64,000 nucleotides of DNA, taken from assembly GCA_963757865.1 (NCBI GenBank), contig CAVWSU010000013.1:410904-474903 (forward strand), in the 5' to 3' direction. Both the position numbers and the translations under genes were made by a program. Source of the stretch: an uncultured Chloroflexia bacterium. GTDB taxonomy: Bacteria; Chloroflexota; Limnocylindria; Limnocylindrales; CSP1-4. Within the stretch, counting starts at the first letter, position 1, and every line of letters begins with the position of its first letter. This document shows positions 10,759-25,525 of this stretch, in pieces. The notes under the pieces were generated by a model, which saw only the letters and a list, made by a program, of their open reading frames with translations, did not search any database and was not told the origin of the DNA.

Positions 10759-11537
10759 GCGCGGCGTCCGGCAGCGTGACGGTGCGGCGGCAGCATGGCG
10801 CGGACGAGGAGGAAGCACGAGGTCGCGCCGGGATCCTGGTGCCCCCGCGACCGCTCGCCGAGGCGGAGGGCGAGACCACGACGCGCGACGAGCGGAGTCG
10901 TCGCGCGCATGCCTGCGTACGCCGCCCAGGCGGCCGCCCGGACGGCCCGTTCCACGGGCTCTCCGGCAGTCACCGCCGTCCGAAAGGCCACGGCAGCCGG
11001 CTGCAACGCATCGAGGATGGTCTTGTCGCCGGGGTCGCAGCGGCCCCGGCGCGCCAGGCCGCGAACCGCCGCGTCGAGCGCGTCCGCGAGCGCGGCCGGG
11101 TCCGCGCGCGTCGAACCACCCAGCGAGAAGCCCGCCTCGATGAACGCAGTCCCGTACAGCGGCCCGCTGGCGCCGCCGACGCTCGCGACCAGCACGTGGC
11201 CGGCGCTCCTGAGCAGCGCGCCCAGGTCGGCTGTCGGCGCCGCGTCGAGGCCCGCGCCGAGCACCGCGCCGAACCCGGTCGCCATGTTCTCGCCGTGATC
11301 GCCGTCGCCGAGTGCCGCGTCGAGCCGGTCCAGCAGGACGCGATGGCGCTGCAGTGCGCGAGTGACCCGGACCAAATACGCGACCAGCGCCACCCTGTCC
11401 ACGGGCTTCGCCCCGGCCGCACGGGCCGCGGCCAGGGCGTGCCGGTCGTGCGCACGGGTCGGGCGCGAGGGCCGCCGAACGGCGGCCCGAGTCCGCGCAC
11501 GGGCCTTCACCGGATCGGATACGCGGTCTATGCTCAT
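10755..11537 (-). CDS. DhaL (Dak2 ADP-binding subunit) paralogue 1, altered GRA motif
   Basis: LDAALGDGDHG, GGASGPLYG, GDKTILDAL, GERSRGHQDPGATS. Confidence 0.88.
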   Translation of the reverse strand: MSIDRVSDPVKARARTRAAVRRPSRPTRAHDRHALAAARAAGAKPVDRVALVAYLVRVTRALQRHRVLLDRLDAALGDGDHGENMATGFGAVLGAGLDAAPTADLGALLRSAGHVLVASVGGASGPLYGTAFIEAGFSLGGSTRADPAALADALDAAVRGLARRGRCDPGDKTILDALQPAAVAFRTAVTAGEPVERAVRAAAWAAYAGMRATTPLVARRGLALRLGERSRGHQDPGATSCFLLVRAMLPPHRHAAGRRA

Positions 11538-11614
11538 CCGGTTCGTAGTGTACGAGGCGGAATCGGCGCCGCGGGACCGTCGTGACGCGCCGCCCGGGCG
11601 GGCTCGGAGGAACG

Positions 11615-12031
11615 GTGGTCGGACTCGTCCTCGTGGCACACAGCCCGGAGCTTGTTCAGGGCCTCCGTGCCATGGTCGCGCAGGCCGCGCCGGGCGTCCC
11701 GGTCGGACTCGCGGCCGGCAGCGCCCAGGGCCGGCTGGGGACGAGCGCCCCGCAGGTGCTGGAGGCCCTGCACGAGACGCTCGCCGCGAGCCGTGGTGAC
11801 GGGGCGGTCGTCCTGGTCGACCTCGGGAGCGCCACGATGGCGGTCGAGATCGCGCTCGAGGAGGCCACCGAGGCGGAGCGCCGCCTCACCCGCCTGAGCC
11901 GCGGGCCCATCGTGGAGGGTGCCATCTTCGCCGCGATCGAGGCGGCGGCCGGTGCCGGCCTCGAGGCCGTGCTTGCGGCGGCCGACGCGGCAGCGGGCAT
12001 GCCCAAGTTCCCCGGTGACGAGCGCGGGTGA
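11615..12031 (+). CDS. DhaM-type PTS EIIA(Man)-fold phosphotransferase, paralogue 1
   Basis: VGLVLVAHS, LGTS, VLVDLGSA, PIVEGA. GGAGG RBS at 11606. Confidence 0.88.
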   Translation: MVGLVLVAHSPELVQGLRAMVAQAAPGVPVGLAAGSAQGRLGTSAPQVLEALHETLAASRGDGAVVLVDLGSATMAVEIALEEATEAERRLTRLSRGPIVEGAIFAAIEAAAGAGLEAVLAAADAAAGMPKFPGDERG

Positions 12032-12135
12032 TGCGATCGGGGCGCCGGCGCGTCCGTCCGACTGGCCCGGCTCGCCGCGCGCCATCGCCGCGCACGGAAT
12101 CGCGCTCGCTCCCCGCGGCGATGCGGAAAGAGCCG

Positions 12136-13020
12136 ATGAGCGCGACATGGGTCCGGGCCTGGCTGCGGGCGAGCGCCGCGGCCGTCGCCGAGCAGCGGGA
12201 ATGGCTCACGGACCTCGACGCCGCGATCGGGGACGGCGACCACGGTATCAACCTCGATCGCGGCATGCGGCGCGTCCTGGAGGCACTGGACGACGCGGAA
12301 ACGGCGGCGCTGCCGGCTGGGGAACTGCTCGAACGGGCCGGTCGGCTGATCTTGGGTTCGGTCGGGGGCGCGAGCGGCGCGTTGTACGGGCGTGCGCTCC
12401 AGCGCGCGGGCGCCGCCCTCACGGTCGAGGCCGACGCAGCCGCCGAGGCCGATCGAGCCGCCGCGGCCGATCGAGCCGCCGCGGCCGACCGAGCCGCCGA
12501 GGCCGATCGAGTCGCCGCAACCCGGCCCCCGGATGTCCCCGACGGGATGCGTGCCGCGGCAGGAGGCCCGCAGGCCGGCACCGGGCACGGCCCTGGTCAC
12601 GTCGCAGGGCGGGGCCGTGGCGGCCTTTCCGCGATCGGCCCCGGGCAGCGCACGACCGACCCGGTCCGCATGCTGGTCCTCTCGTTCGATGCTGCCGTGG
12701 AGGCCATCGCCGCCCTCGGCCGGGCCACCCCTGGGGACAAGACGATGCTCGACGCGCTGGTCCCCGCATCGCTTGCACTGCGCCGCTCCATGGACGCAGG
12801 CGATGACGTGGCGGAGGCGCTGTCACGGGCCGCAGAGGCCGCGGCGATGGGCATGGAGGAAACGAGGCCGCTCGTTGCGCGGCGCGGTCGCGCGAGCTAC
12901 CTCGGTGAGCGGTCCGCCGGCCATCTCGACCCCGGGGCAGCGTCCAGCCTCATGTTCGTGCGTGCGCTCGTGTCCACGTATCCCGGCGTCCCGCTGGAAC
13001 GGCGGCCTCCCGGCGACTGA
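12136..13020 (+). CDS. DhaL paralogue 2 with about 75-aa low-complexity insertion (start could be 12028-12136)
   Basis: LTDLDAAIGDGDHGIN, GGASGALYG, GDKTMLDAL, RGRASYLGERSAGHLDPGA. Confidence 0.88.
   Translation: MSATWVRAWLRASAAAVAEQREWLTDLDAAIGDGDHGINLDRGMRRVLEALDDAETAALPAGELLERAGRLILGSVGGASGALYGRALQRAGAALTVEADAAAEADRAAAADRAAAADRAAEADRVAATRPPDVPDGMRAAAGGPQAGTGHGPGHVAGRGRGGLSAIGPGQRTTDPVRMLVLSFDAAVEAIAALGRATPGDKTMLDALVPASLALRRSMDAGDDVAEALSRAAEAAAMGMEETRPLVARRGRASYLGERSAGHLDPGAASSLMFVRALVSTYPGVPLERRPPGD
12439..12510 (+). repeat. 4 x 18-bp in-frame repeat (AA[E/A]ADR) inside DhaL paralogue 2
   Basis: gccgccg(a/c)ggccga(t/c)cga at 12439, 12457, 12475 and 12493. Confidence 0.85.
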
Positions 13021-13172
13021 CCGCCCGCGTCGCACCTGGCCCGCGTCGCACCTGGCCCGTCTGGTACCTGCCCCGCGGATGCAACGGATGTCGCGACCGT
13101 CGTGGGCCGGCCCATACCCGACCGGCGCTACCGTCGTGTGGCGTGGCGGTGCCACGCGAAAGGAGGCCCACC

Positions 13173-13565
13173 GTGGTCGCATACGACAAGGACGAGCACG
13201 CGCGCCGCCAGGCCCGCGCTCTGAACGGCGGCGAGGGAGCTCGTTCGGACGACCCCCTCGACCCCCGTTCCGCTCACGGGAACTCGCCGGTCGACGCCAT
13301 GACCGAGAGCCGCGCGAACCCACCGGTTGACGACATGAACGAGACGGCCGGACGCGGGCCCCGCGAGTGGAACCGGCGGGAATGGGCCGGCGAGGCCCCG
13401 GCCGGATCCGAGTCGCAGCACTGGAACAAGAACGAATGGGCGGGGGAGTCCCCGGATCCTGACGCGGAGGAGCCCGGCGGAGCGATGCCGCCGGGCGAGG
13501 CCGGGCCCACCGGGCTCGGCCACAATCCCGGCGAGCAGCACTGGGCCGGCGACCGCAAGCCCTAG
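13173..13565 (+). CDS. Small acidic, probably disordered hypothetical protein with Trp-containing repeats
   Basis: Strong AAGGAGG RBS, GC3-biased codons, internal repeats EWNRREWAGE / HWNKNEWAGE / HWAGD. Confidence 0.7.
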   Translation: MVAYDKDEHARRQARALNGGEGARSDDPLDPRSAHGNSPVDAMTESRANPPVDDMNETAGRGPREWNRREWAGEAPAGSESQHWNKNEWAGESPDPDAEEPGGAMPPGEAGPTGLGHNPGEQHWAGDRKP

Positions 13566-14023
13566 CACGCCGCCCGGGCCGGAGGCCCTCGTCGAACTCC
13601 CGATCCAGTCAAATCGGAAGCGACCGGTAGTGACGCCGGTCGCTTCCTCGTGTCTGCCCACCGGCGTGGAGGTGACGCTGCCGTCGGCTGAAGGGGATCC
13701 CGCGCTCTGACATGCGCCGGATACAAGCGCGGCCCGTTCCGCGATCTAGACGATGTATTGAGATTTCGCAGCCCGATCGCGACGTACAGTGGTCCGGATA
13801 GGTACGGACGTAGCCGCCGGCGGTTTGCGTGTGCGCACGGGGGGAGCCGCACCGTGTCGGCGGTGGCTGGAAAGGAGGCCGCTCGGAGGACTTCGCTTCT
13901 TGCTCACCCCGGCCGGGGTTCCGAGTCCGACTTCCGATCCGGCGCCGCCCAAGCGCGCCGGCCACATTCCCCCGGTCGCGGTTCCGCGGAACCATCCCAT
14001 CCTTTTGAGGGAGTACACACGGG

Positions 14024-14782
14024 ATGACAGCTGAGAAGTTCCTCGCCGAGATCTTCGGCACGGGAATGCTCATCCTGCTCGGCGACGGCGTGGTCGCGGC
14101 AGTTCTTCTTTCCAAGTCGAAGGCCCAGAACTCGGGCTGGATCGTCATCACCACGGCATGGGCGCTCGCAGTGTTCTGCGGCGTCGTGATTGCCGGACCG
14201 ATCAGCGGCGCGCACCTGAACCCGGCCGTCACCATCGGCCTGGCCGTCATGGGCTCCCTGCATGCCGGATCCGGCATCGGCTGGGACGCGGTGCCCGGCT
14301 ACTGGGCAGCCGAGATGATCGGCGCCATGATCGGCGCCGCCCTCGTCGCGCTCCACTACTGGGATCACTTCAAGGTGACCGAGGACCAGGGCCTCAAGCT
14401 CGCGGTCTTCAGCACTGGCCCGAACATCCGCAATTACGGCCTGAACCTGATCTCGGAGATCATCGGCACGTTCGTGCTGGTGTTCCTTGTGTTCTCGTTC
14501 GGCCACAACGGCGATGCCTCCGGCCTCGCCTCGCTCGGCGCCCTCCCCGTCTCGCTGGTCGTCTGGTCGATCGGCCTGTCGCTCGGCGGCACGACCGGAT
14601 ACGCGATCAACCCCGCCCGCGACCTGGGCCCGCGCATCATCCACGCGGTCCTGCCGATCCCCGGCAAAGGCAAGTCGGACTGGGAATACTCGTGGGTGCC
14701 CGTGGTGGGCCCACTCATCGGCGGTGCCCTCGCGGCCGCTGTCTACTACGTCGGCTTCACCAACTACATCCTGGTGAAGTAG
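14024..14782 (+). CDS. glpF: Glycerol uptake facilitator (aquaglyceroporin)
   Basis: SGAHLNPAVT and GYAINPARDLGPR (NPA/NPARD) motifs, GAGG RBS. Confidence 0.96.
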   Translation: MTAEKFLAEIFGTGMLILLGDGVVAAVLLSKSKAQNSGWIVITTAWALAVFCGVVIAGPISGAHLNPAVTIGLAVMGSLHAGSGIGWDAVPGYWAAEMIGAMIGAALVALHYWDHFKVTEDQGLKLAVFSTGPNIRNYGLNLISEIIGTFVLVFLVFSFGHNGDASGLASLGALPVSLVVWSIGLSLGGTTGYAINPARDLGPRIIHAVLPIPGKGKSDWEYSWVPVVGPLIGGALAAAVYYVGFTNYILVK

Positions 14783-14908
14783 GCCATCGGAGCCTGAGCC
14801 GGTTGTCGCCGGCCTGACGCCGGTACCCGTGTCGCGCGTCCCGCCGTCGGCCCGCCACCGGGCCGGCCGGCGGCGGGCACGCCGGCAGGCATGACCGCAG
14901 GAGAACCG

Positions 14909-15907
<999 letters not shown>

Positions 15908-15961
15908 CCAACCCGCAGCTCGGGCGGATCACCTCGCACGAAAGGGAAGGTGCACGGGCGG

Positions 15962-16618
15962 ATGAGCGGGGCGACACCCATCACGTACGACGACGTCGTC
16001 GCCTGGATCAACACGTTCGCCGCAACCGTCAGGGACCAGAAGGAGTACCTCACCGGGCTCGATTCCGCGATCGGGGACGCCGACCACGGGATCAACATGG
16101 ACCGGGGCTTCCAGGCCGTGATCGGGAAGCTCCCGGGCCTGCCCACCCGCGACATCGGCGCCGCCTTCAAGTCCGTGGGGATGACGCTGGTATCGACCGT
16201 CGGCGGGGCGAGCGGTCCGTTGTACGGAACCTTCTTCCTCCAGCTCGGAACGGCCACCGTCGGCCGGGAGGCCATGGGGCTCGACGACCTCGTCACGGCG
16301 CTCGACGCCGGGGTCGCCGGGATCCAGCGGATCGGCAAGGCGGAATTGGGCGACAAGACCATGCTCGACACGCTGTTGCCGGCGCGGGACGCGCTGCGCG
16401 AGGCCGCCGCGTCCGGCGTCCCGCTGCAGGACGCCCTCGACCGCCTGGTCTCGGCCGCCGAGCAGGGGATGCTCGCGACCATCCCGCTCGTGGCCCGCAA
16501 GGGCCGCGCGAGCTACCTCGGGGAACGGAGCGCCGGCCACCAGGATCCCGGCGCGACGTCCTCCTATTTCCTCCTGAAGGCCGCCGCCGACACGTTCGCA
16601 GGGGCGGAGGCCAGGTAA
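15962..16618 (+). CDS. dhaL: Dihydroxyacetone kinase ADP-binding subunit (canonical copy)
   Basis: LDSAIGDADHG, GGASGPLYG, GDKTMLD, RKGRASYLGERSAGHQDPGATS. Directly after dhaK. Confidence 0.96.
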   Translation: MSGATPITYDDVVAWINTFAATVRDQKEYLTGLDSAIGDADHGINMDRGFQAVIGKLPGLPTRDIGAAFKSVGMTLVSTVGGASGPLYGTFFLQLGTATVGREAMGLDDLVTALDAGVAGIQRIGKAELGDKTMLDTLLPARDALREAAASGVPLQDALDRLVSAAEQGMLATIPLVARKGRASYLGERSAGHQDPGATSSYFLLKAAADTFAGAEAR

Positions 16619-16672
16619 CCAGGCCTCGTAGCCGGCGCCTGGGCCGGCGGGTCAACTAGCTGGGAGACACAC

Positions 16673-18172
16673 ATGGCGAAGTACGTCGGCGCCCTCGACC
16701 AGGGCACGACCAGCACCCGTTTCATGGTCTTCGACCACGCAGGCGGCGTGGTCGCGATCGACCAGAAGGAACACGAGCAGATCTATCCGAAGCCCGGATG
16801 GGTCGAGCACGATCCGCTGGAGATCTGGACGCGCAGCGTCGAGGTCATCCGCGGCGCGCTCGCCAAGGCGGGCATCACCGCGGCCGACCTGGCGGCGGTG
16901 GGCGTCACCAACCAGCGCGAGACGACGGTCGTCTGGGATCGCCGGACCGGCAAGCCCGTCTACAACGCGATCGTCTGGCAGGACACGCGCACGGACGTGA
17001 TCATCAACGAGTTCGCCAAGGACGGCGGCCAGGATCGCCTCCGCGCCAAGGTCGGACTCCCGCTGGCCACGTACTTCTCGGGCCCCAAGGTCAAGTGGGT
17101 CCTCGACAACGTCGAGGGCGCGCGCGCCAAGGCCGATGCCGGCGACCTCATGTTCGGCAACATCGACACCTGGTGCATCTGGAACCTCACCGGCGGCGTC
17201 GGTGGCGGCGTGCACGTGACGGACGTCACGAACGCCAGCCGCACCATGCTGATGAACCTCGAGACTCTCGACTGGGATCCCGAGATCCTGAAGCTCATGG
17301 GCATCCCGCGCTCCATGCTTCCGGCCATCAAGGCCTCGAGCGAGGTGTACGGCAAGGCCACGGGCGACCTGGCCGGCGTGCCGGTCGCAGGCGACCTCGG
17401 CGACCAGCAGGCAGCCCTCTTCGGCCAGACGTGCTTCTCCGCCGGCGAGGCGAAGAACACCTACGGCACCGGCTGCTTCATGCTCCTGAACACGGGCACC
17501 AAGGCGGTCCCGTCCAAGAGCGGCCTGCTCACGACCCTGGGCTACAAGATCGGCAGCGAGCCGGCCGTGTACGCCCTCGAGGGCTCGATCGCGATCACCG
17601 GGGCGCTCGTGCAGTGGCTGCGCGACAACCTCGGCATGATCAAGACCTCGCCCGAGATCGAGGAGCTCGCCAAGACGGTCGACGACAACGGCGGCGTGTA
17701 CTTCGTGCCGGCGTTCTCGGGACTGTTCGCCCCCTACTGGAAGAGCGACGCGCGTGGCGTCATCGCCGGCCTCACGCGCTACGTGAACAAGGGCCACATC
17801 GCACGAGCCGTGCTCGAGGCGACGGCCTGGCAGACCCGCGAGGTCCTGGATGCGATGAACGCCGACTCCGGCGTTCCGCTCACGGCCCTCAAGGTCGACG
17901 GCGGCATGGTCTACAACGACACCCTCATGCAGTTCCAGTCCGACGTCCTCGGCGTGCCGGTCGTTCGCCCGAAGGTGGCGGAGACGACGGCCCTCGGTGC
18001 CGCCTATGCGGCCGGCCTCGCGGTCGGCTTCTGGAGCGCCGTCGAGGATCTGCGCCAGAATTGGGCGAAGGACAAGGAATGGCAGCCCAAGATGGATGCC
18101 ACCACCCGCGAGACGGATCTCCGCCTCTGGAAGAAGGCCGTCACGAGGACCTTCGACTGGGTCGAGAACTGA
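16673..18172 (+). CDS. glpK: Glycerol kinase
   Basis: [51 protein letters not shown]. Confidence 0.98.
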
Positions 18173-18220
18173 GCCTCTGAACGGATCCGGACCCCGAAGG
18201 GCCTGGTCGGAGACAAGCCA

Positions 18221-19405
18221 ATGAACGCCACGTTCCGTTCGCCAGCCCCGCACGTCGTGATCGTCGGCGGGGGAGGCACGGGTGGCGCCCTGGCCCTCGA
18301 CCTGGTCCTCCGGGGCATCCGGGTCACCCTCGTCGAACGCGGCGAGATCACGTCCGGTACCACCGGACGTCACCACGGACTGCTGCACAGCGGAGCGCGC
18401 TACGCGGTCAACGACGCCGAGTCCGCGGTCGAATGCATCGAGGAGAACAAGCTTCTGCGGCGCGTCGCGCCCGGATCGTTCGAGGAGAACGACGGGCTCT
18501 TCGTCGGGATCGACGACGAGGACATGGCGTACGGCGCGAAGCTCTTCGCGGCCTGCGGCGAGACCGGGATCCCGGCTCGCTGGCTGACGCCGGCCGAGGC
18601 GCTGCGCCTCGAACCCAACCTGAACCCTGCGCTGAAGGGCGCGATCCAGGTCCCCGACGCGACCTTCGACGCGATGCGCCTCCCGCTGCGGTGGTTCGCG
18701 ACCGCCCGCGCGAACGGCGCCATCATCCAGCCGTTCTGCGAGGTCAACGAGCTGATCGTCCGGGACGGGTGCGTCACGGGGGTGCGGGGGCGCGACCACC
18801 GGACGGAGAAGGACTTCGAGATCGGCGCGGACCTCGTCGTGAACGCGGCCGGGCCGTGGGCCGAGAAGATCGCCGCCATGGCCGGCGTCGACGTCCCGAT
18901 CCAGCCCTCGCCGGGCGTCCTCCTCGCGCTGCGCGGCCGGCTGTGCAACATGGTCGTCAACCGGATGCACAAGTCCGGCGACGGCGACATCGTCGTCCCG
19001 CAGCGCGCGCTCTCGATCGTCGGGACCAGCTCCTGGGTCGTCGAGGACCCGGACGACCTGGGCGTGCCCGAGGACCACGTGCAGCGCATGTACGCGGAGG
19101 GCGCGAAGATCATCCCTGCCGTCAGGTCCGCTCCCTTCCGCCAGGCGTGGTCGGCGGCCCGGCCGCTCATCGGGTCCCGGGGGGCATCGACGGGCCGCGA
19201 GCTGAGCCGGACGTTCAAGTGCTTCGATCACAGGGAGAGCGACGGAGTCGAGGGGTTCGTCACGATCTCCGGCGGAAAGGCGACCACGGCCCGGGCCATG
19301 GCCGAGACCACCGCCAACGTCGTCAGCGGCAAGCTCGGGATCGATGCGCCCTGCCGGACGCGCGACACCGTCCTGCTGCCCCACACCGCCTATTACGCTG
19401 CGTGA
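18221..19405 (+). CDS. FAD-dependent glycerol-3-phosphate dehydrogenase, GlpA-like, short form
   Basis: GGGGTG FAD motif, GTTGRHHGLLHSGARYAV, VNAAGPWA, ARPL, ISGGKATTARAMAE. Follows glpK. Confidence 0.85.
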   Translation: MNATFRSPAPHVVIVGGGGTGGALALDLVLRGIRVTLVERGEITSGTTGRHHGLLHSGARYAVNDAESAVECIEENKLLRRVAPGSFEENDGLFVGIDDEDMAYGAKLFAACGETGIPARWLTPAEALRLEPNLNPALKGAIQVPDATFDAMRLPLRWFATARANGAIIQPFCEVNELIVRDGCVTGVRGRDHRTEKDFEIGADLVVNAAGPWAEKIAAMAGVDVPIQPSPGVLLALRGRLCNMVVNRMHKSGDGDIVVPQRALSIVGTSSWVVEDPDDLGVPEDHVQRMYAEGAKIIPAVRSAPFRQAWSAARPLIGSRGASTGRELSRTFKCFDHRESDGVEGFVTISGGKATTARAMAETTANVVSGKLGIDAPCRTRDTVLLPHTAYYAA

Positions 19406-19409
19406 GCCG

Positions 19410-20144
19410 ATGAGCGACACGACCACTCTTCGCGTCCACCGCTTCAAGCAGGGCGACGAGGCCCCCCATCACGACCGCTTCGAGGTCCCCATCGGACCGC
19501 GCACCACCGTGCTCGACGCGCTCACGGCCATCAGGCGGACGCAGGACCCCAGCCTCACGCTCCGGCACTCCTGCTTCCACGCGTCGTGCGGCACGTGCGG
19601 CATGAAGGTCAACGATCGCGAGGTCCTGGCGTGCGTGACGAACGTCCGCGAACTGGGGTCGGCCGAGGTCGTGGTGGAACCCCTCGACAATGCGCCGGTG
19701 ATCAGCGACCTCGTCGTCGACATGGGGCCGTTCTTTGCGCGGTTCAATGCCGCCGATCGCCCGCTCGTGCGCGAGAGCGAACTCGTGCCGGGATCGCACA
19801 CGGCCGAAGGCATCCCGTATGCGGAGCGGTACGAGGACTGCATCGAGTGCGGCATCTGTGTCTCCGCGTGCCCGATCGCCGGCACGGACTCCACCTACCT
19901 CGGTCCCGCCGCCCTTGCGGCCGCTGACCGGGTCAGGGAGGAGCCGCGGGGCGCCGACGTCCCGTTCGTGATGCGTCTCGCCGACGACGCGCACGGCGCG
20001 TGGCGCTGTCACCTGGCCTTCGAGTGCACCGAGGCGTGCCCGTCGAACGTGGACCCGGCGGGCCATATCATGAAGCTGCGCGGCTCGCTCATCGGCCGTC
20101 GATGGCGACGGACGCCGGCGGAGCCCGTGGGGGCACGACGATGA
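19410..20144 (+). CDS. Succinate dehydrogenase/fumarate reductase-type iron-sulfur subunit (SdhB-like)
   Basis: SCFHASCGTC..LAC (2Fe-2S), CIECGICVSACP (4Fe-4S), CHLAFECTEACP (3Fe-4S), YLGPAAL. Confidence 0.92.
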   Translation: MSDTTTLRVHRFKQGDEAPHHDRFEVPIGPRTTVLDALTAIRRTQDPSLTLRHSCFHASCGTCGMKVNDREVLACVTNVRELGSAEVVVEPLDNAPVISDLVVDMGPFFARFNAADRPLVRESELVPGSHTAEGIPYAERYEDCIECGICVSACPIAGTDSTYLGPAALAAADRVREEPRGADVPFVMRLADDAHGAWRCHLAFECTEACPSNVDPAGHIMKLRGSLIGRRWRRTPAEPVGARR

Positions 20145-20566
20145 CCGAACGCGCCGTCACCACCGACCGCACACCACCCCCGCCGGCCCGTCGCCGGGGC
20201 ATCATGGCGTGGGTCGACGTCCGTGGCCGCCGGCTGGGAGGCTGGGCGTTCATCCTCAACCGGGTGACCGGCCTTGGCGTCCTCTTCTACCTGTACCTGC
20301 ACCTCGTGATCCTCTCTCAGCTCGCCGTCGGGCCGTCCGCGTGGGACTCGCTCCTGAAGAACTGGTTCCTGAACCCGGTCTTCCTCGTGATGGACGTCGT
20401 CCTGCTCGCGGGCCTCCTGATCCACGGACTGAACGGCATCAGGCTCACGCTGGTGGGGTTCGGCCTGGTCGTGGATCGCCAGCGGGCCATGCTGCTTGCG
20501 CTCGGGACGATCGGCGCGATCGTGCTGGTGATCGGCGTGCTGATGTTCATCAGCCACGGGGGTTGA
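20141..20566 (+). CDS. SdhC-like cytochrome b membrane subunit
   Basis: NRVTG..YLYLHL..IHGLNGIR, 3 hydrophobic helices, ATGA overlap. Confidence 0.87.
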   Translation: MTERAVTTDRTPPPPARRRGIMAWVDVRGRRLGGWAFILNRVTGLGVLFYLYLHLVILSQLAVGPSAWDSLLKNWFLNPVFLVMDVVLLAGLLIHGLNGIRLTLVGFGLVVDRQRAMLLALGTIGAIVLVIGVLMFISHGG

Positions 20567-20570
20567 GGGC

Positions 20571-20996
20571 ATGACAGGAAGGACGAACGAGCGACCCGGG
20601 GCGCTGGCACGACCACCCGAGCTCCCCGAGCGCTGGGCTCCCGAGGAACACGACACGCTGCCGGGCGTGGGCTGGGGCTGGCAGGCGATCACCGGCGCCC
20701 TCGTGCTGGTGCTCGTGACCCTGCACATGATCGCCAACCACTTCGTGGTCCAGGGTGGGCTGCGCGACTACCAGCAGGTCATCGACTACATCACCAACCC
20801 CGTCATCCTGCCGCTCGAGACGCTGTTCCTGGTGGTCGTGAGCTGGCACGGACTGCTCGGCCTGCGCGCGGTCATCTTCGATTTCGGCCTCAGCACGCGC
20901 GCCGAGCGCATCGTCACCCGGGCCTTCGTGATCGTCTGGCTCGTCACGATCGTCTACGGGGCGGCCCTGCTGGCCATCCTCGTCACCCGCCGGTGA
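20571..20996 (+). CDS. SdhD-like membrane anchor subunit
   Basis: WQAITG..LHM..WHGLLGLRAVIFD, 3 hydrophobic helices. Confidence 0.85.
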   Translation: MTGRTNERPGALARPPELPERWAPEEHDTLPGVGWGWQAITGALVLVLVTLHMIANHFVVQGGLRDYQQVIDYITNPVILPLETLFLVVVSWHGLLGLRAVIFDFGLSTRAERIVTRAFVIVWLVTIVYGAALLAILVTRR

Positions 20997-21089
20997 CGCG
21001 TCACCGGCCGGCGATGGATCACGCGGCGGTGATTGGTTACATGCCCGTGACAGGTCACCCGCCGGTGATGGGTCACGAGGCGGCGAGGG
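20982..21089. repeat. 6 x 18-bp degenerate tandem repeat with TCAC-N6-GTGA palindromic core
   Basis: Units at 20982, 21000, 21018, 21036, 21054 and 21072, e.g. gtcacccgccggtgacgc and gtcacccgccggtgatgg. Confidence 0.75.
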
Positions 21090-21102
21090 CGGAGACCGCG
21101 GC

Positions 21103-21552
21103 GTGACGGAGGGCACGGGGCCGGCCGGACACCGCCCGCTCGTCGGGATCGTCGTCGCGTCGCATTCCGCCGCTGTGGCCGACGGGATCGTGGAGATGGC
21201 CCTGCAGATGGCTCGCGAGCAGGCGCCCGACGTCCGCGTGGTCGCGGCGGGAGGCACGCAGGACGGGTCCCTCGGCGAGGACCCGGTCCGGATCGCCGCC
21301 GCGATCGAGGAAGCCGACGCGGGCGCCGGCGTGGTCGTCGTCGTCGATTTCAACGGCGCCGTCCATGCGGCGCGATTCGCGCTGGAGAGCCTTGTCGATC
21401 CGTCGCTCGCCGCACGGGTGCGCATCAGCGGCGGTCCCCTCGTCGAGGGTGCCGTGTTCGCGGCCGTCCAGGCGAGCATCGGGGACGGCCTCGATGCCGT
21501 GCTCGCGACCGCCGAGGCGTCGTCCGCATTCGACAAGCACGTCGCGGACTGA
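21103..21552 (+). CDS. DhaM-type PTS EIIA(Man)-fold phosphotransferase, paralogue 2
   Basis: VGIVVASHS, AAGGTQDGSLG, VVDFNGA, PLVEGA. Confidence 0.87.
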   Translation: MTEGTGPAGHRPLVGIVVASHSAAVADGIVEMALQMAREQAPDVRVVAAGGTQDGSLGEDPVRIAAAIEEADAGAGVVVVVDFNGAVHAARFALESLVDPSLAARVRISGGPLVEGAVFAAVQASIGDGLDAVLATAEASSAFDKHVAD

Positions 21553-21566
21553 GCCGCCAGCGTCCC

Positions 21567-22625
21567 ATGCGAGTGGCGGTGATCGGCGCGGGCGCCGTCG
21601 GCTCGGTGCTGGCGGGGTGCCTCGCGGAGGCGGGGCACGGCGTGGTCCTCGTTGCGCGATCAGGTCCTGCGGTTCCGGAGCGCGGCCCGCTCGAGCTGGA
21701 CGGCCCGGGCGACCGGCGCCGCGTCGTGCCGGTCGAGCGCCTCTCCGCCTCCGGCACGCTCCCCGACGACCTCGACGTGGCGGTGCTGGCGGTGAAGCGC
21801 TTCGACCTGCCCGCCGCGCTCGGCGTGCTCGACGGGCGTCCGCTCCTCCCGGCCGTGACGGTCCAGAACGGGATCGGCGCCGAGGAGCAGGTGTCGGCGA
21901 TCCGCGTCGGGAGCCCGCTGATCGCCGCCTCGCTCACGGCCGCGGTCGAAGTCGGACCGGCGGGCGAGGCGCGCTGGCTCAACCGTGGCGGCATCGGCCT
22001 GGCACCTGTCGGGACCGGGACCGGGGCCGGCCTGGCCCCTCCCGTGGACGTGGCTCGCGCACTTGCCGACGCGTTCCGGACCGGCGGCATGCGAGCCGCG
22101 GTGTTCCCCGACGCAGGGGCCATGAAGTGGTCGAAGCTGATCGCGAACCTGGTCGGCAACGCCACGAGTGCCCTGCTCGATCTGGACGTCGGCGCCATCT
22201 ACGCGGACTCCGCGCTGTTCGAGGTCGAGCGTCGCCAGGAGCTGGAGGCGCTGGCGGTGATGAGCGGCCTCGGGCTGCGGCCCCGCGCGCTCCCGGGCGC
22301 GGACGTCCGGCTCCTGGTCCGTGCCTTCCGCGCGCCTGCACCCATCGCCCGGCCGATCCTGTCCAGGATCCTCGGCGGGGCCCGCGGAGGGAAGATGCCG
22401 TCGCTGCGGCTCGCGCTTGCCGCGGGCCCGGGACCCACCGAGGTCGTGTGGCTCAACGGCGCCGTGGCCGCCACAGGCGAGCGCGTCGGCGTTCCCGCTC
22501 CCGTCAATGCGGGGCTCCGGCGACTGGTGGAGGACGCGGCGAGCGACCCCGACAGGCGAACCTGGTTCCGCGGCCGCCCGGACCGGCTCCTGGCCGAGCT
22601 CGCCGGCGCGGCGCCTGCCGGCTGA
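21567..22625 (+). CDS. Ketopantoate reductase (PanE/ApbA) family oxidoreductase
   Basis: GAGAVG Rossmann motif, AVK, QNGIG, KWSKLIAN, TEVVWLNGAV. Confidence 0.82.
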   Translation: MRVAVIGAGAVGSVLAGCLAEAGHGVVLVARSGPAVPERGPLELDGPGDRRRVVPVERLSASGTLPDDLDVAVLAVKRFDLPAALGVLDGRPLLPAVTVQNGIGAEEQVSAIRVGSPLIAASLTAAVEVGPAGEARWLNRGGIGLAPVGTGTGAGLAPPVDVARALADAFRTGGMRAAVFPDAGAMKWSKLIANLVGNATSALLDLDVGAIYADSALFEVERRQELEALAVMSGLGLRPRALPGADVRLLVRAFRAPAPIARPILSRILGGARGGKMPSLRLALAAGPGPTEVVWLNGAVAATGERVGVPAPVNAGLRRLVEDAASDPDRRTWFRGRPDRLLAELAGAAPAG

Positions 22626-22657
22626 GTCCGGGGGGCGCGACCGTATACTCCGCCGTC

Positions 22658-23287
22658 ATGGATGCCATCACCCTGGTCCGGGACATCGCAATCGTGGTTG
22701 TCGCGTTCCTCATCGGGGGGATCCCGTGGGGCGTGATCGTGGCGCGGGCCGCCGGCGGCCCGGACCCGCGATCCGTGGGGAGCGGACGGACCGGGGGTGC
22801 GAACGTCGCCCGGGCGCTCGGGTTCCGCCTCGCGGTGCTGTCGGGCTTCCTGGACATCTGCAAGGGCATCGCGGCGGTGCTGCTCGCGCGAGTGCTGGGG
22901 GCAGGAGCCGTGGTCGAGGTCCTTGCCGCGCTGGCCGCGATCGTGGGACACAGCCGGTCGCCGTTCCTCGGCATGCAGGGTGGGCGTGGCGTATCCGCCG
23001 GGTTCGGCGGTCTGATCGTGATCCAGCCGATCATCGCCGTGCTGATCATCCCGGTGTTCGCGGTCGTCTTCCTGGCCAGCCGCTACTCCTCGCTCGCGTC
23101 GCTCACCGGGTCCGCGGCCGCGGGCGTCGGCCTCGCGGCCCTCGCCGCGATCGGCGGCCAGCCGCCCGTGTACTACCTCTATGCCATCGGGGGGCCGCTC
23201 CTGATCTGGCTGTTCCACAGCGACAACATCGCCCGGCTCGTGGCGGGGACGGAACGCCGCTTCGGCTCGCGGCCCGGGGCGCACTGA
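22658..23287 (+). CDS. plsY: Acyl-phosphate:glycerol-3-phosphate acyltransferase
   Basis: GGIPWG, DPRSVGSGRTGGANVAR, DICKG, GHSRSPF..GGRGV, HSDNIARL..GTE. Confidence 0.9.
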   Translation: MDAITLVRDIAIVVVAFLIGGIPWGVIVARAAGGPDPRSVGSGRTGGANVARALGFRLAVLSGFLDICKGIAAVLLARVLGAGAVVEVLAALAAIVGHSRSPFLGMQGGRGVSAGFGGLIVIQPIIAVLIIPVFAVVFLASRYSSLASLTGSAAAGVGLAALAAIGGQPPVYYLYAIGGPLLIWLFHSDNIARLVAGTERRFGSRPGAH

Positions 23288-23450
23288 GGCCATCCCTCCG
23301 GCACGTCGCGGCCGGACGCTCCCGAGAGTGACGCAGCGTGCGGCAGGCATGCCGGTGCCACGGGCCGTGGCCGCCGCCGTTCGGCGGAGCCGGCACCGGC
23401 GTGCGGCCAGGGCGCCACGGTCCCGGCGTGGCCGGTGCAGAATCACGACC

Positions 23451-25173
23451 ATGCGCACGCTGTCGGGGACGCCCGCGTCGAGCGGGATCGCGCGCGGGCC
23501 CTGGGTCCGCGTCGACGCCCCTCGCGAGCCGGAGGCGCGGTCCATCGCGCCCGGACGAGGCCGGGGCCGAGCGGGAGCGGCTCGCGCTCGCGTGCGAGCG
23601 GGCGGCGGCCGAGCTCGAGTCGATCGCGGCGCGGGTCACCGCCGACGGGCACGCGGACGAGGGGGCCATCTTCGCGGCCCAGGCCCAGATGGCCCGGGAT
23701 CCCGCGCTCGCCTCGCTAGCGGAGCAGTCCATCGACGAGCGCCACGTCGATGCGGTCGGGGCAGTCCTGGAGGCGGGCCGGTCGCTCGCCGAGCAGCTGC
23801 GCGGGCTGGGCGACGAGCTCCTCTCCGCGCGCGCCGCCGACGTGACCGACGTGGCCGCCCGCGTCGCCCGTCGTGCCGCGGGCGTACCCGATCCGGGGCC
23901 GCCGGGCCTGCCCGTCGCGAGCATCGTCGTGGCGGAGGACCTGGCGCCGTCCGTGACCGCCACGCTGCCGCGCGACCGCCTGCTCGGGTTCGCCCTGGAA
24001 TCCGGCTCCGCGACCGCCCACGCCGCGATCCTGGCGCGCGCCTACGGCATTCCCGCCGTCGTCGGCGTTCACGGGCTGCTCGGTGCGCTCGTCCCCGGCA
24101 TCATCGCCGTCGACGGGGACAGCGGCGAGGTGTTCGTCGAGCCCGACGCGGCGACGTCCGCCGACATCGAGCGCCGGGCCGAGCGCGCGCGCCGCGCCAA
24201 TTCTCTGGCGCTGAGCGAGGCGTCCCTGCCGGCGGTGACGCGCGACGGCGTGGAGGTGACGCTGCTCGCGAACATCGGGACGCCCGACGAGGCCTCGCGG
24301 GCCGTCGAGCTCGGGGCTCACGGCGTCGGGCTGTTCCGGACCGAGTTCCTCTTCCTGGAGCGCGCCACCGAGCCGGGGGAGGACGAGCAGGAGGCGGCGT
24401 ACCGGGCCGCCGTGGAGGCATTCTCGCCGCATCCGGTGACGATCCGGCTGCTCGACGTCGGTGGCGACAAGCCGATCCCGTACCTGCCGATGGCGCCGGA
24501 GGCGAACCCGTTCCTCGGCGTGCGTGCGCTGCGCCTCGCGGCCACCCGGCCCGGGCTCTTCCTCACCCAGCTTCGCGCGACGATGCGTGCCGCCGTGGCG
24601 GGCCCCGTGAAGGTCATGGCGCCGATGGTGGCCGACGCGGGTGACGCCGCCACGCTGCTGTCGCTGGCCGCCCGGGCGCGCGCGGAGCTCGAGGCGGGCG
24701 GCATCCCGCACGCGCCCGTCGACCTGGGGGTCATGCTGGAGATTCCGGGGGCGATCCTCGTCGGAGACAGCTACTTCCCGCGCCTCGCGTTCGCGAGCCT
24801 GGGCACGAACGACCTGCTGCAGTACACGCTCGCGGTGGACCGCGGGAACCCGGACCTCGCCCGGTACCAGGATTCGCTGCACCCGGCCCTCCTGCGGCTG
24901 GTCCGTGAAGCGGTCGAGCGCGCCACGCAGGCCGGCATCGAGCTGTCGGTGTGCGGCGAGATGGCAGGTGACCCGGTGGCGGCGCTCGCGCTGGTCGGCC
25001 TGGGGATCCGCAAGCTCAGCATGGCCGCAGGCAGCCTGGCCGCCGTGCGGCGCGCCGTCCGTGGCGTCGACGAGGCTCGGGCGCGCGAGGCGGCCGTGAG
25101 CGCGCTCGACGACCCGTCGGCCGAGGTCGTGCGGGCGCGCTTCCGCGCCCTGCTCGAGGGCGCGACGGCCTGA
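23451..25173 (+). CDS. ptsI: PTS enzyme I, apparent +1 frameshift near 23550 (probable assembly error)
   Basis: N-terminus MRTLSGTPASSGIARG in one frame. The rest is in the next frame: TAHAAILAR (phospho-His), GVGLFRTEFLF, RLLDVGGDK, EANPFLGVRALR, GTNDLLQY, CGEMAG. Confidence 0.9.
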
Positions 25174-25225
25174 CCGCGCGCCCGGTTTCAGACGCGCGCC
25201 TCCGCGCCGTCGACCGCTTCCGGTT

Positions 25226-25525
25226 TCAGGCGGACGCGCCGGCCCCGTCGATCGGTTCGCCCAGCCCGGAGGCGATGGCAGCCTCGAGCCCGGCCACCGC
25301 GTCGGCCTCGTCGGGCCCGTCGGCCGCAATCCGTATGCGATGGCCGCTGGACACGCCCGCAGTCAGGACGAGCAGGAGCGATTTCGCGTCGACCGCCCGT
25401 CCACCACGGTCCAGGTTCTCGAGCGTCACCCGGGACGCGTACCGGGCCGCCGCCTGGACGAAGAGGGTGGCCGGCCGCGCATGGAGCCCGCTTGCGTTGC
25501 GCACGACGATCTCGACGGTCTGCAT
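25226..25525 (-). CDS. ptsH: HPr phosphocarrier protein
   Basis: RNASGLHARPA (His15), VDAKSL (Ser46), ADGPDE. Confidence 0.93.
   Translation of the reverse strand: MQTVEIVVRNASGLHARPATLFVQAAARYASRVTLENLDRGGRAVDAKSLLLVLTAGVSSGHRIRIAADGPDEADAVAGLEAAIASGLGEPIDGAGASA

What the first reader, a model, noticed from the sequence alone, without database searches (positions are those of the whole stretch)
18221..20996. Hybrid respiratory complex: GlpA-like G3P dehydrogenase with SdhB/C/D instead of GlpB/C
Seen: directly after glpK, a 394-aa GlpA-like flavoprotein with no C-terminal Cys-rich extension is followed with 4-nt gaps or overlaps by a complete SdhB-type Fe-S protein and SdhC/SdhD-type anchors. 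Each anchor has two His, consistent with two hemes. No SdhA/FrdA, GlpB or GlpC is in the window. Known: G3P is oxidised by GlpD or GlpABC, and SdhBCD normally partners SdhA. Inference: a complex II electron-transfer module repurposed as a glycerol-3-phosphate:quinone oxidoreductase.
Basis: partly seen in the sequence, partly recalled or inferred. Interest (0 to 1): 0.8.

Follow-up and report, generated by a model that had tools for sequence, protein, structure and literature searches.

The report
G3P dehydrogenase with complex-II anchor
A Chloroflexota bacterium encodes a shortened glycerol-3-phosphate dehydrogenase that most likely passes its electrons to its own private copy of the iron-sulfur and membrane subunits of succinate dehydrogenase, a design noted in print only for a few archaea and never tested at the bench.

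Summary
glpK is followed by a 394-aa GlpA-type flavoprotein that ends at position 378 of the 530-position GlpA profile, so it has no BFD [2Fe-2S] domain. Tightly coupled sdhB, sdhC and sdhD paralogues come next, inside a glpF-dhaKL-glpK-...-dhaM operon.

The SdhB paralogue keeps all 11 cluster cysteines. The four axial histidines of the two hemes of M. smegmatis Sdh2 (6LUM) align with invariant His in the two anchors.

The genome has a separate, complete sdhCDAB. No GlpB, GlpC, GlpD-type or BFD domain was found in it (88.9% complete).

Across 46 related loci (Chloroflexota and Actinomycetota-labelled MAGs, plus cultured Anaerolinea thermolimosa), glpA is always followed by sdhBCD wherever the contig reaches that far. 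Other Chloroflexota carry full-length glpA-glpB-glpC in the same operon frame, which points to a module swap. GlpA-linked SdhBs separate from SdhA-linked ones in a tree (100/99). A complex model scored 0.93 against a best control of 0.02, with the 2Fe-2S loop at the interface.

The kind is not new. "GlpA-SdhBCD" was inferred from synteny in Thermofilum (Schmerling et al. 2025), and that paper states that bacterial glpA always pairs with glpBC. This is a new bacterial member of a predicted but uncharacterised kind. Interest is moderate.

The parts
14024..14782 (+). glpF-type glycerol facilitator (MIP family)
   Evidence: PF00230, 154.5 bits
14891..15907 (+). dhaK, dihydroxyacetone kinase subunit K
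   Evidence: TIGR02363, 493.1 bits, above its cut-off; PF02733
15950..16618 (+). dhaL, dihydroxyacetone kinase subunit L
   Evidence: TIGR02365, 245.9 bits, above its cut-off
16673..18172 (+). glpK, glycerol kinase
   Evidence: TIGR01311, 743.6 bits, above its cut-off
18221..19405 (+). Short GlpA-type FAD glycerol-3-phosphate dehydrogenase, 394 aa, without the BFD [2Fe-2S] domain. Its conserved C-terminal tail is predicted to dock on SdhB.
   Evidence: TIGR03377, 437.5 bits over profile 1-378 of 530; PF01266, 171.7 bits; alignment A4; interface residues 41-50, 85-92, 150-153, 260-264, 307-310 and 387-394
19410..20144 (+). SdhB/FrdB-type iron-sulfur subunit, GlpA-linked paralogue, 244 aa. The 11 invariant Cys are C55/60/63/75, C144/147/150/154 and C200/206/210.
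   Evidence: TIGR00384, 193 bits (cut-off 88); alignment A1; 34% identity to the genome's canonical SdhB
20141..20566 (+). SdhC-type membrane anchor, 141 aa, with three hydrophobic helices and invariant H54 and H95
   Evidence: PF01127, 46.8 bits; alignment A2; best solved match 6lum_C at 69.3 bits, with H54 aligned to His C47 and H95 to His C87; hydropathy
20571..20996 (+). SdhD-type membrane anchor, 141 aa, with three hydrophobic helices and invariant H52, H57 and H93
   Evidence: PF01127, 44.7 bits; alignment A3; alignment to 6lum_D puts H52 on His D65 and H93 on His D107
20982..21089 (.). Array of about six 18-nt tandem units, each a near-palindrome of the GTCACCCGCCGGTGA type. It starts in the last codons of sdhD and fills the sdhD-dhaM spacer. 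Its function is unknown.
   Evidence: the repeat finder family D1, spacing 18. It is the only such cluster in the genome. A related contig in run X10 lacks 72 nt, four units (table 5).
21103..21552 (+). dhaM, EIIA-type phosphoryl donor subunit of DHA kinase
   Evidence: PF03610, 70.9 bits; TIGR02364, 94 bits, just below its 98.25 cut-off
21567..22625 (+). ApbA/PanE-family NAD(P) oxidoreductase. It is conserved after dhaM in most Limnocylindria-type loci.
   Evidence: PF02558 and PF08546; TIGR00745, 124.5 bits, below its cut-off; synteny
22658..23287 (+). plsY, glycerol-3-phosphate acyltransferase
   Evidence: PF02660, 125.4 bits; start located
23338..25173 (+). ptsI, PTS enzyme I. The true start is probably further downstream in this ORF.
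   Evidence: PF05524, PF00391 and PF02896

Best explanation
The four genes at 18221-20996 most likely encode one membrane-bound glycerol-3-phosphate:quinone oxidoreductase.

Proposed electron path (inferred):
1. The short GlpA, a DAAO-fold FAD enzyme, oxidises the G3P made by GlpK to DHAP.
2. In canonical GlpABC the first acceptor is GlpA's own C-terminal BFD [2Fe-2S] domain, followed by GlpB and GlpC. Here the flavin instead reduces the [2Fe-2S] cluster of a dedicated SdhB paralogue docked onto the flavoprotein.
3. Electrons then run through the SdhB [4Fe-4S] and [3Fe-4S] clusters into a type-A, two-subunit anchor (SdhC and SdhD paralogues, three helices each).
4. The anchor most likely holds two b hemes and reduces the membrane quinone, presumably menaquinone.

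What is shown here: the gene anatomy, the cofactor ligands, the conserved synteny, the separate canonical sdhCDAB, and the swap with glpBC in an otherwise identical operon frame.

What is inferred: physical assembly of the complex, the substrate, the direction of the reaction, the number of hemes, and the quinone and its binding site.
For: (1) Catalytic subunit. The protein scores 437.5 bits on the GlpA equivalog over the whole catalytic part (profile 1-378 of 530), far above any other DAO-family model. It sits next to glpK and glpF. It is the only FAD-type G3PDH candidate found in the genome. No DAO_C (GlpD/GlpO) hit was found. The only paralogue is an amine-oxidase type.

(2) Missing canonical partners. 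There is no BFD domain in the protein or anywhere in the genome. No GlpB or GlpC scores above cut-off.

(3) SdhB paralogue. All 11 cluster Cys are invariant in 17 of 17 aligned sequences.

(4) Anchors. The best solved match is the dihaem M. smegmatis Sdh2 anchor (6lum_C, 69.3 and 56.1 bits). The four published axial His (C47, C87, D65, D107; PMC7447783, passage read) align with invariant H54 and H95 in SdhC and H52 and H93 in SdhD.

(5) Gene coupling. The junctions are a 4-nt gap, a 4-nt overlap and a 4-nt gap.

(6) Synteny in the 46 related loci. sdhB follows glpA in 46 of 46, sdhC in 45 of 46 and sdhD in 44 of 46. The misses lie at contig ends. The GlpA ORF is 385-398 aa in 37 of 46 loci. 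The other 9 are cut or broken.

(7) The module is an extra copy.
- The own genome has a complete sdhCDAB on C21.
- Ten other carrier genomes were searched for SdhA. Eight have an SdhA-type hit.
- Five of these ten were also searched for SdhB. Four of those five have SdhA, and each strong SdhA hit lies within 1 kb of its own SdhB.
- Two of the ten show no SdhA-type hit, although they carry glpA-sdhBCD.

(8) Module swap. In a sample of 61 genomes of the phylum, 5 have the short form and 7 the long form. All 3 short-form neighbourhoods examined carry sdhBCD. The 2 long-form ones examined in full read dhaL-glpK-glpA(full length)-glpB-glpC-dhaM.

(9) Tree. The 46 GlpA-linked and 6 SdhA-linked SdhBs are split by a branch with support 100/99.

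(10) Complex model of GlpA and SdhB, with FAD and a 2Fe-2S cluster riding along.
- Scores were 0.93, 0.93 and 0.92, against a best control of 0.02.
- In the tool's calibration the mark was reached by 58 of 80 solved complexes and 2 of 110 mismatched pairs.
- The runs agree in at least 73% of contacts, and the partner's pLDDT is at least 79.
- The interface holds SdhB residues 47-60, 62 and 75-76, which is the 2Fe-2S ligand loop, and GlpA residues 41-50 and the conserved C-terminal tail 387-394.
Against: - No experiment exists for this architecture in any organism.
- The complex score is a model's own confidence. SdhB is present in many solved complex II structures, so its docking face may be partly recalled from those. 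My own alignments and the riding ligands also depart from the tool's calibration.
- No coordinates were returned, so the FAD to 2Fe-2S distance could not be measured.
- The genome is 88.9% complete, so the absence of GlpD, GlpB or GlpC is 'not found', not proven.
- The two SdhA-less genomes are MAGs of unstated completeness.
- SdhC and SdhD score below the NCBIfam equivalog cut-offs: 46.8 against 52.3, and 32.4 against 41.8.
- The quinone is not identified. The MenA model gave only 79.2 bits against a cut-off of 102.
- RNA-library contigs that cover the genes do not prove transcription.
Confidence: 0.7

Rival explanations
1. The short GlpA works on its own or with another partner, as a monotopic quinone reductase like GlpD, an oxidase like GlpO, or CoxG-anchored as in Sulfolobus. 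The neighbouring SdhBCD paralogues would then serve a different, unidentified flavoprotein.
For: DAO-fold G3PDHs without Fe-S partners exist: GlpD, GlpO, and the Sulfolobus GlpA-CoxG enzyme (PMC11962113). The short GlpA has no cluster of its own.
Against: The genes are tightly coupled. Synteny is invariant across 46 loci from two phyla-level labels. sdhBCD stands exactly where glpBC stands in sister operons. The short GlpA lacks the DAO_C domain of GlpD and GlpO. The complex score is high against its controls.
Confidence: 0.12
2. The sdhBCD paralogues are a spare Fe-S and anchor set for the genome's SdhA, forming an alternative complex II isoform. Their place beside glpA would reflect only co-regulation.
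For: All three are bona fide members of the Sdh/Frd families by Pfam and NCBIfam. Some bacteria carry two Sdh enzymes; M. smegmatis Sdh1 and Sdh2 both appear among the solved structures.
Against: In the own genome and in the 4 SdhA-bearing genomes among the 5 carriers checked for both subunits, every strong SdhA hit already has its own adjacent SdhB. Two of 10 carrier genomes show no SdhA at all. The paralogue is only 34% identical to the resident SdhB. GlpA-linked SdhBs form a separate group. No second sdhA accompanies them in any of the 46 loci.
Confidence: 0.05
3. The complex forms, but its physiological reaction differs. It might run in reverse as a quinol:DHAP reductase that makes G3P for lipid synthesis (plsY lies in the same gene string), or it might act on a substrate other than G3P.
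For: plsY lies 1.7 kb downstream on the same strand. Dihaem complex II enzymes are reversible in principle (established knowledge; type A/B discussion in PMC7447783). The score on the GlpA equivalog is below cut-off.
Against: The sub-threshold score is explained by the missing C-terminal third, not by divergence of the catalytic part. The context is catabolic: glpF, glpK and dhaKLM. The same operon frame holds canonical glpABC in relatives.
Confidence: 0.08

Closest known systems
GlpA-SdhBCD of Thermofilum pendens and related Thermofilales. It was inferred from synteny by Schmerling et al., Commun Biol 2025 (PMC11962113). I read the Fig. 9b legend and sections 11 and 12.
   Same: A GlpA-clade flavoprotein is followed by genes for SdhB, SdhC and SdhD counterparts, proposed to give membrane anchoring and electron transfer. 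It is not characterised biochemically either.
   Different: That case is archaeal. The paper states that in Bacteria glpA consistently co-occurs with glpB and glpC. The present case is bacterial (Chloroflexota, and Actinomycetota-labelled MAGs) and sits in a dhaKLM operon. I could not fetch the Thermofilum sequences, so common descent versus convergence is untested. The paper's supplements were not available to me.
GlpABC, the anaerobic G3P dehydrogenase of E. coli and haloarchaea
   Same: The catalytic GlpA core is homologous (TIGR03377 profile 1-378). The operon position is the same as glpABC in other Chloroflexota.
   Different: It lacks the BFD [2Fe-2S] C-terminal domain, GlpB and GlpC. 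Electron exit is taken over by an SdhB-type three-cluster protein and integral-membrane haem anchors. GlpC, by contrast, has CCG domains and no transmembrane haem subunit (recalled).
Type A dihaem succinate:menaquinone oxidoreductase, M. smegmatis Sdh2 (PDB 6LUM; PMC7447783)
   Same: 6lum_C is the best solved match for both anchors. All four axial His and the 11 SdhB Cys are conserved.
   Different: There is no SdhA. The flavoprotein has a different fold family (DAAO/GR2, not the SdhA/FrdA type) and a different substrate. No SdhF was looked for.
GlpA-CoxG G3PDH of Sulfolobus acidocaldarius (PMC11962113)
   Same: It has a truncated GlpA-clade flavoprotein without the four C-terminal Cys, and it uses a non-GlpBC partner to reach the membrane.
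   Different: The partner there is a small CoxG-like anchor without Fe-S clusters or haem. Here it is a full Fe-S and haem wire.
GlpD, the aerobic monotopic G3P dehydrogenase
   Same: It has an FAD DAO-fold G3P-oxidising core and reduces quinone.
   Different: GlpD has the DAO_C domain and no Fe-S or haem subunits. No DAO_C was found in this genome.

Membership tests
GlpA (TIGR03377, subunit A of anaerobic G3PDH) | N-terminal DAAO-fold FAD and G3P-binding catalytic domain | tested here: met
   437.5 bits over profile 1-378; PF01266, 171.7 bits. Individual G3P-site residues were not checked against a structure.
GlpA (TIGR03377, subunit A of anaerobic G3PDH) | C-terminal BFD-like [2Fe-2S] domain with four Cys | tested here: not met
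   The protein ends at profile position 378 of 530. There is no PF04324 hit, the score is below the 552.8 cut-off, and there is only one Cys after residue 334. A long relative (L071) does carry PF04324.
GlpA (TIGR03377, subunit A of anaerobic G3PDH) | Partner genes glpB and glpC | tested here: not met
   The best GlpB hit is 19.4 bits and the best GlpC hit 23.9 bits anywhere in the genome, both far below cut-off. The genome is 88.9% complete.
SdhB/FrdB iron-sulfur subunit (TIGR00384) | Fer2_3 N-domain plus dicluster C-domain, with the 4+4+3 Cys pattern for [2Fe-2S], [4Fe-4S] and [3Fe-4S] | tested here: met
   193 bits against a cut-off of 88. The 11 Cys are invariant in 17 of 17 sequences. Assigning each Cys to a particular cluster is recalled from E. 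coli SdhB.
Complex II (succinate:quinone oxidoreductase / quinol:fumarate reductase) | SdhA/FrdA flavoprotein encoded with, and bound to, the SdhB | tested here: not met
   There is no SdhA in the window or in any of the 46 loci. The genome's only SdhA sits with another SdhB on C21.
Type A dihaem complex II anchor (SdhC plus SdhD, Sdh_cyt PF01127) | Two three-helix subunits of the Sdh_cyt family | tested here: met
   PF01127 at 46.8 and 44.7 bits (cut-off 25.8); three hydrophobic stretches in each. The NCBIfam equivalogs TIGR02970 and TIGR02968 score below cut-off.
Type A dihaem complex II anchor (SdhC plus SdhD, Sdh_cyt PF01127) | Four axial His, one in helix 1 and one in helix 2 of each subunit, ligating haems bP and bD | tested here: met
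   H54 and H95 (SdhC) and H52 and H93 (SdhD) are invariant and align to 6LUM His C47, C87, D65 and D107. Haem binding itself cannot be tested here.
GlpA-SdhBCD (Thermofilum type, Schmerling et al. 2025) | Short GlpA-clade gene directly followed by sdhB, sdhC and sdhD counterparts | tested here: met
GlpA-SdhBCD (Thermofilum type, Schmerling et al. 2025) | Sequence relatedness (one clade) with the Thermofilum GlpA and SdhB | not testable with these tools
   No Thermofilum sequence could be fetched. Twenty short-form representatives looked up by name gave no archaeal name.

The most novel reading that the evidence does not exclude
GlpA-SdhBCD is a real, widespread fourth class of respiratory G3P dehydrogenase in bacteria. 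In it, a DAAO-fold flavoprotein has captured the complex II Fe-S and dihaem module in a single swap for glpBC and the BFD domain. Because the anchor is a transmembrane dihaem wire of the type that reduces menaquinone at a distal (outer) site, G3P oxidation would be coupled to the membrane potential in a way no known G3PDH is. In SdhA-less Anaerolineales it would be the only complex-II-type module in the cell.
Probability: 0.3. Interest if true: 0.7.

Novelty: new member of a known kind. Interest (0 to 1): 0.5.

Why it matters
The finding suggests that the Fe-S and anchor half of complex II is a portable quinone-reductase module that flavoproteins of an unrelated fold can use. It also shows that this solution for glycerol respiration is not an archaeal oddity. 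It is common in soil and sediment Chloroflexota and in Actinomycetota-labelled MAGs, where databases name the parts "succinate dehydrogenase iron-sulfur subunit" and "FAD-dependent oxidoreductase". This can mislead metabolic reconstructions, for example by scoring complex II as present in genomes that have no SdhA.

It corrects the published generalisation that bacterial glpA always pairs with glpBC. It also offers a cultured organism, Anaerolinea thermolimosa, and side-by-side glpBC and sdhBCD operon variants as a natural experiment for testing how electron-exit modules are exchanged.

Tried and rejected
- Earlier notes of this scan: nothing for this place.
- Orphan-SdhA idea: rejected, because a complete sdhCDAB lies on C21.
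- Linking the bacterial clade to Thermofilum. Of the 150 best 50%-cluster representatives, I looked up 20 short forms by name. Organism names came back for only two clusters, a Bacillota MAG member and a Chloroflexota MAG. None was archaeal, so the link stays open.
- Quinone identity: the MenA model gave 79.2 bits, below its 102 cut-off, which is inconclusive.
- Promoter and terminator scan of 13000-25500: 0 promoter-like and 2 terminator-like sites, no more than in shuffles. It gives no operon boundaries.
- Expression. Four RNA-library runs from two studies were laid. One 2,279-nt contig in X10 covers 19058-20999 and 21072-21408, with 138 differences. One 603-nt contig in X4 bridges glpK and glpA (17882-18484, 4 differences). 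The tool warns that such contigs show neither transcription nor a single transcript, so this is at most a weak hint. X15 gave no cover beyond 18302, and X17 gave only small pieces; neither says anything.
- SdhC-SdhD fusion. My ORF script reported a 256-aa ORF in L050 and a 270-aa ORF in L033. Translation of L050 and L056 shows an in-frame stop between two separate genes. It was a script artefact. L033 was not rechecked.
- Dispersed repeat (REP) reading of the 18-nt units: rejected. With up to 2 mismatches the motif clusters only at this spot in the genome.
- FAD to 2Fe-2S distance: not obtainable, because complex prediction returns no coordinates.


Full report
**What is there**

The window is high in G+C, 68-77% per 2 kb. 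On the + strand it carries this gene string:

| Gene | Coordinates |
|---|---|
| glpF | 14024-14782 |
| dhaK | 14891-15907 |
| dhaL | 15950-16618 |
| glpK | 16673-18172 |
| GlpA-like gene | 18221-19405 |
| sdhB-like | 19410-20144 |
| sdhC-like | 20141-20566 |
| sdhD-like | 20571-20996 |
| dhaM | 21103-21552 |
| ApbA/PanE-family oxidoreductase | 21567-22625 |
| plsY | 22658-23287 |
| ptsI | 23338-25173 |

The junctions among the four genes of the finding are a 4-nt gap, an ATGA overlap and a 4-nt gap. glpA starts 48 nt after glpK.

**The flavoprotein**

The 394-aa protein matches the GlpA equivalog TIGR03377 at 437.5 bits, but only over profile positions 1-378 of 530. That is why it stays below the 552.8-bit cut-off. 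Pfam sees only the DAO domain.

A full-length GlpA from another Chloroflexota genome (L071) scores 656 bits over positions 1-526 and carries the BFD-like [2Fe-2S] domain PF04324. So the window's protein is a GlpA catalytic core without the C-terminal cluster domain.

Schmerling et al. 2025 describe that C-terminal domain as the bfd-like FeS domain with four conserved Cys, thought to pass electrons to GlpB (PMC11962113, sections 10 and 12, passages read).

**The Fe-S subunit and the anchors**

The SdhB paralogue passes the SdhB/FrdB subfamily model at 193 bits against a cut-off of 88. In an alignment of 17 sequences, 11 Cys are invariant: C55/60/63/75, C144/147/150/154 and C200/206/210. This is the pattern for one [2Fe-2S], one [4Fe-4S] and one [3Fe-4S] cluster. 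The assignment of Cys to clusters is recalled from E. coli SdhB.

Both anchors are Sdh_cyt proteins with three hydrophobic helices. Profiles of each find the SdhC of M. smegmatis Sdh2 (6lum_C) as the best solved match, at 69.3 and 56.1 bits. The paper on that structure gives the axial ligands as His D107-His C87 for haem bP and His D65-His C47 for haem bD (PMC7447783, passage read). Counting along the printed HMM alignments gives these matches:

| Window residue | 6LUM residue |
|---|---|
| SdhC H54 | His C47 |
| SdhC H95 | His C87 |
| SdhD H52 | His D65 |
| SdhD H93 | His D107 |

All four are invariant among 16 sequences each. The raw His counts are 3 and 4, not 2 and 2.

**The rest of the genome**

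The window is C13:410904-474903 of a 3.43-Mb assembly in 22 contigs, 88.9% complete.

- A complete canonical sdhC-sdhD-sdhA-sdhB cluster lies on C21.
- It holds the genome's only SdhA-type C-terminal domain.
- The canonical SdhB is 34% identical to the GlpA-linked one.
- No DAO_C domain (GlpD/GlpO), no BFD domain, and no GlpB or GlpC above cut-off was found.
- The only GlpA paralogue is of the sarcosine/glycine-oxidase type.

The short GlpA is the only FAD-type G3PDH candidate found.

**Relatives**

A scan of one genome per species found 46 loci that encode a relative of the flavoprotein, from 114 pattern matches.

- The closest, at 89-93% identity, are MAGs titled Chloroflexi or Candidatus Limnocylindrales. 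I infer the window's organism from these.
- Others are titled Anaerolineales, Actinomycetota or Solirubrobacterales.
- One is the cultured Anaerolinea thermolimosa IMO-1, at 47% identity.

By tblastn, sdhB follows glpA in 46 of 46 loci, sdhC in 45 of 46 and sdhD in 44 of 46. The misses (L015, L020) lie at contig ends. glpK precedes glpA in 43 of 46, and the other three are cut at the locus start.

The GlpA ORF is 385-398 aa in 37 of 46 loci. The other nine are cut or broken, and I did not examine them further.

**Is the module an extra copy?**

Ten other carrier genomes were searched for SdhA, and eight have an SdhA-type hit.

Five of the ten were also searched for SdhB-type Fer2_3 domains. 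Four of those five have SdhA. In them, each of the five strong SdhA hits lies within 1 kb of an SdhB hit that is not the GlpA-linked one.

Two Anaerolineales MAGs (G005, G008) gave no SdhA-type hit. G005 shows only one SdhB, the GlpA-linked one. Their completeness is not stated, so this is suggestive only.

**A module swap**

In an even sample of 61 genomes of the phylum, 14 matched the flavoprotein at E no higher than 1e-30:

- Five have the short form: G000; G016, G035 and G059 with open frames of 406-410 aa at 53-57% identity; and a fragment in G047.
- Seven have a long form, with open frames of 528-938 aa at 41-43% identity.
- Two are weak matches at 31-33% identity. One of these is the unpublished G048, on which nothing rests.

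All three short-form neighbourhoods I fetched have sdhB, sdhC and sdhD after glpA. G047 was not examined.

Of the four long-form neighbourhoods fetched, none has them. The two I scanned fully read dhaL-glpK-glpA(full length)-glpB-glpC-dhaM, with GlpB and GlpC above cut-off. The same operon frame therefore holds either BFD+glpB+glpC or sdhB+sdhC+sdhD.

**Tree**

The SdhB tree has 52 rows.

- The 46 GlpA-linked rows are the window, 42 of the 46 loci, and three further loci (L068-L070). Four loci (L032, L036, L052, L054) were dropped because their ORF lengths fell outside 225-262 aa, which points to frameshifts.
- The 6 SdhA-linked rows come from G000 to G004.
- The two sets are separated by a branch with support 100/99.
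- Inside the GlpA-linked set are three groups: Anaerolineae-type (8 rows), Actinomycetota-labelled (13) and Limnocylindria-type (25).

Six outgroup rows are few, and the root is a midpoint root. I therefore claim only that the GlpA-linked SdhBs are not recent copies of the resident SdhBs.

**Do GlpA and SdhB touch?**

I ran one complex job, with alignments A4 and A1 and with FAD and a 2Fe-2S cluster riding along.

- The three runs scored 0.93, 0.93 and 0.92. The best of three controls scored 0.02.
- In the tool's calibration the mark was reached by 58 of 80 solved complexes and by 2 of 110 mismatched pairs.
- The runs agree in at least 73% of their contacts, and the partner's pLDDT is at least 79.
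- The confident interface contains SdhB residues 47-60, 62 and 75-76, which is the loop bearing the four 2Fe-2S Cys. It also contains the inter-domain linker, residues 118-146.
- On GlpA it contains residues 41-50, 85-92, 150-153, 260-264, 307-310 and the conserved C-terminal tail 387-394.

The caveats are these:

- My alignments and the riding ligands depart from the calibration.
- SdhB's docking face is known from many solved complex II structures.
- No GlpA-type chain with an Fe-S partner appears among the solved structures; the best match is 3da1, a G3P dehydrogenase.
- No coordinates are returned, so the FAD to cluster distance is unmeasured.

**Mechanism proposed**

G3P made by GlpK is oxidised at the GlpA flavin. 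Electrons then pass to the SdhB [2Fe-2S], which stands in for the lost BFD cluster. From there they go through the [4Fe-4S] and [3Fe-4S] clusters into a dihaem SdhCD anchor and on to the quinone. The gene content, the ligands and the synteny are shown. Assembly, substrate, direction, haem number, quinone and quinone site are inferred.

The quinone is presumably menaquinone, as in Chloroflexus (PMC12663545, search listing and abstract only). My MenA search was inconclusive.

The GlpA-linked SdhB reads CPIAGTD where the resident SdhB reads CPSFW. As I recall it, the Trp in that segment lines the proximal quinone site in E. coli SdhB. This would fit distal-site use as in dihaem enzymes, but I did not test it.

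**What is known**

The phrase GlpA-SdhBCD, and SdhBCD together with glycerol-3-phosphate, occur in only two items of the searched library. These are the preprint and the journal version of Schmerling et al..

That paper infers the complex from synteny in Thermofilum-related archaea. [quoted passage not shown] Its supplements, which hold the extended comparison, were not available to me.

A search for glpA, Chloroflexi, succinate dehydrogenase and glycerol together found 0 papers. A search on complex II, evolution, SdhB, glycerol-3-phosphate and module listed nothing relevant by title among the 15 of 18 papers shown. Work in subscription journals is not covered.

**Verdict**

This is a new bacterial member of a kind already predicted in archaea and still uncharacterised anywhere. 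What is added here:

- the breadth of the bacterial distribution;
- the clean swap with glpBC in one operon frame;
- the evidence for two haems;
- the separate SdhB lineage;
- a strongly scoring interface model.

Interest: 0.5.

Noticed in passing
window 20982-21089: About six tandem 18-nt units, each a near-palindrome of the GTCACCCGCCGGTGA type, start in the last codons of sdhD and fill the spacer before dhaM. It is the only such cluster in the genome with up to 2 mismatches. A 94%-similar contig in run X10 lacks 72 nt, exactly four units, so the copy number varies between strains. Close relatives have only about 33-60 nt between the sdhD and dhaM hits. It could be a regulator-binding array or a slippage-prone hairpin, but its function is unknown.
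   Followed up: partly
window 21567-22625: An ApbA/PanE-family NAD(P) oxidoreductase, below the 2-dehydropantoate reductase cut-off (124.5 against 141.35 bits), follows dhaM directly. It is conserved there in most Limnocylindria-type loci but was not hit in the Actinomycetota-labelled ones. No gldA-type glycerol dehydrogenase was seen in the operon, so it might supply the dihydroxyacetone for DhaKLM. That is speculation.
   Followed up: no
window 22658-23287 and 23338-25173: plsY (G3P acyltransferase) and ptsI (PTS enzyme I, the phosphoryl source for DhaM) lie on the same strand right after the glycerol genes. No HPr gene was looked for.
   Followed up: no
window 10755-11639 (-) and 12028-13020 (+): Two further ORFs with Dak2 (DhaL-type) domains lie upstream of glpF, besides the dhaL in the operon.
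   Followed up: no
genomes G005 (holds L056) and G008 (holds L055): These two Anaerolineales MAGs carry glpA-sdhBCD but gave no SdhA-type hit. G005 shows only one SdhB-type Fer2_3 hit. Automatic annotation would still report 'succinate dehydrogenase' subunits there.
   Followed up: partly
representatives P0137, P0138, P0142, P0145, P0156, P0165, P0175, P0180, P0190, P0226, P0256: Eleven of the 150 best GlpA-profile representatives are longer than 700 aa (813-1000 aa), several with 2-3 matched stretches. They may be fusions of GlpA with a partner. I did not examine them.
   Followed up: no
loci L032, L036, L043, L047-L049, L052-L054, L057: In these MAG loci, glpA or sdhB shows as broken or run-on frames. 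Assembly indels are as likely as real pseudogenes. I did not resolve this.
   Followed up: no
L010 (G000:C21) canonical SdhB against window 19410-20144: The resident SdhB has Asp at the third [2Fe-2S] ligand position (CGHGICGSD), where the GlpA-linked paralogue keeps Cys (CFHASCGTC). As I recall, E. coli SdhB has the Asp variant.
   Followed up: no
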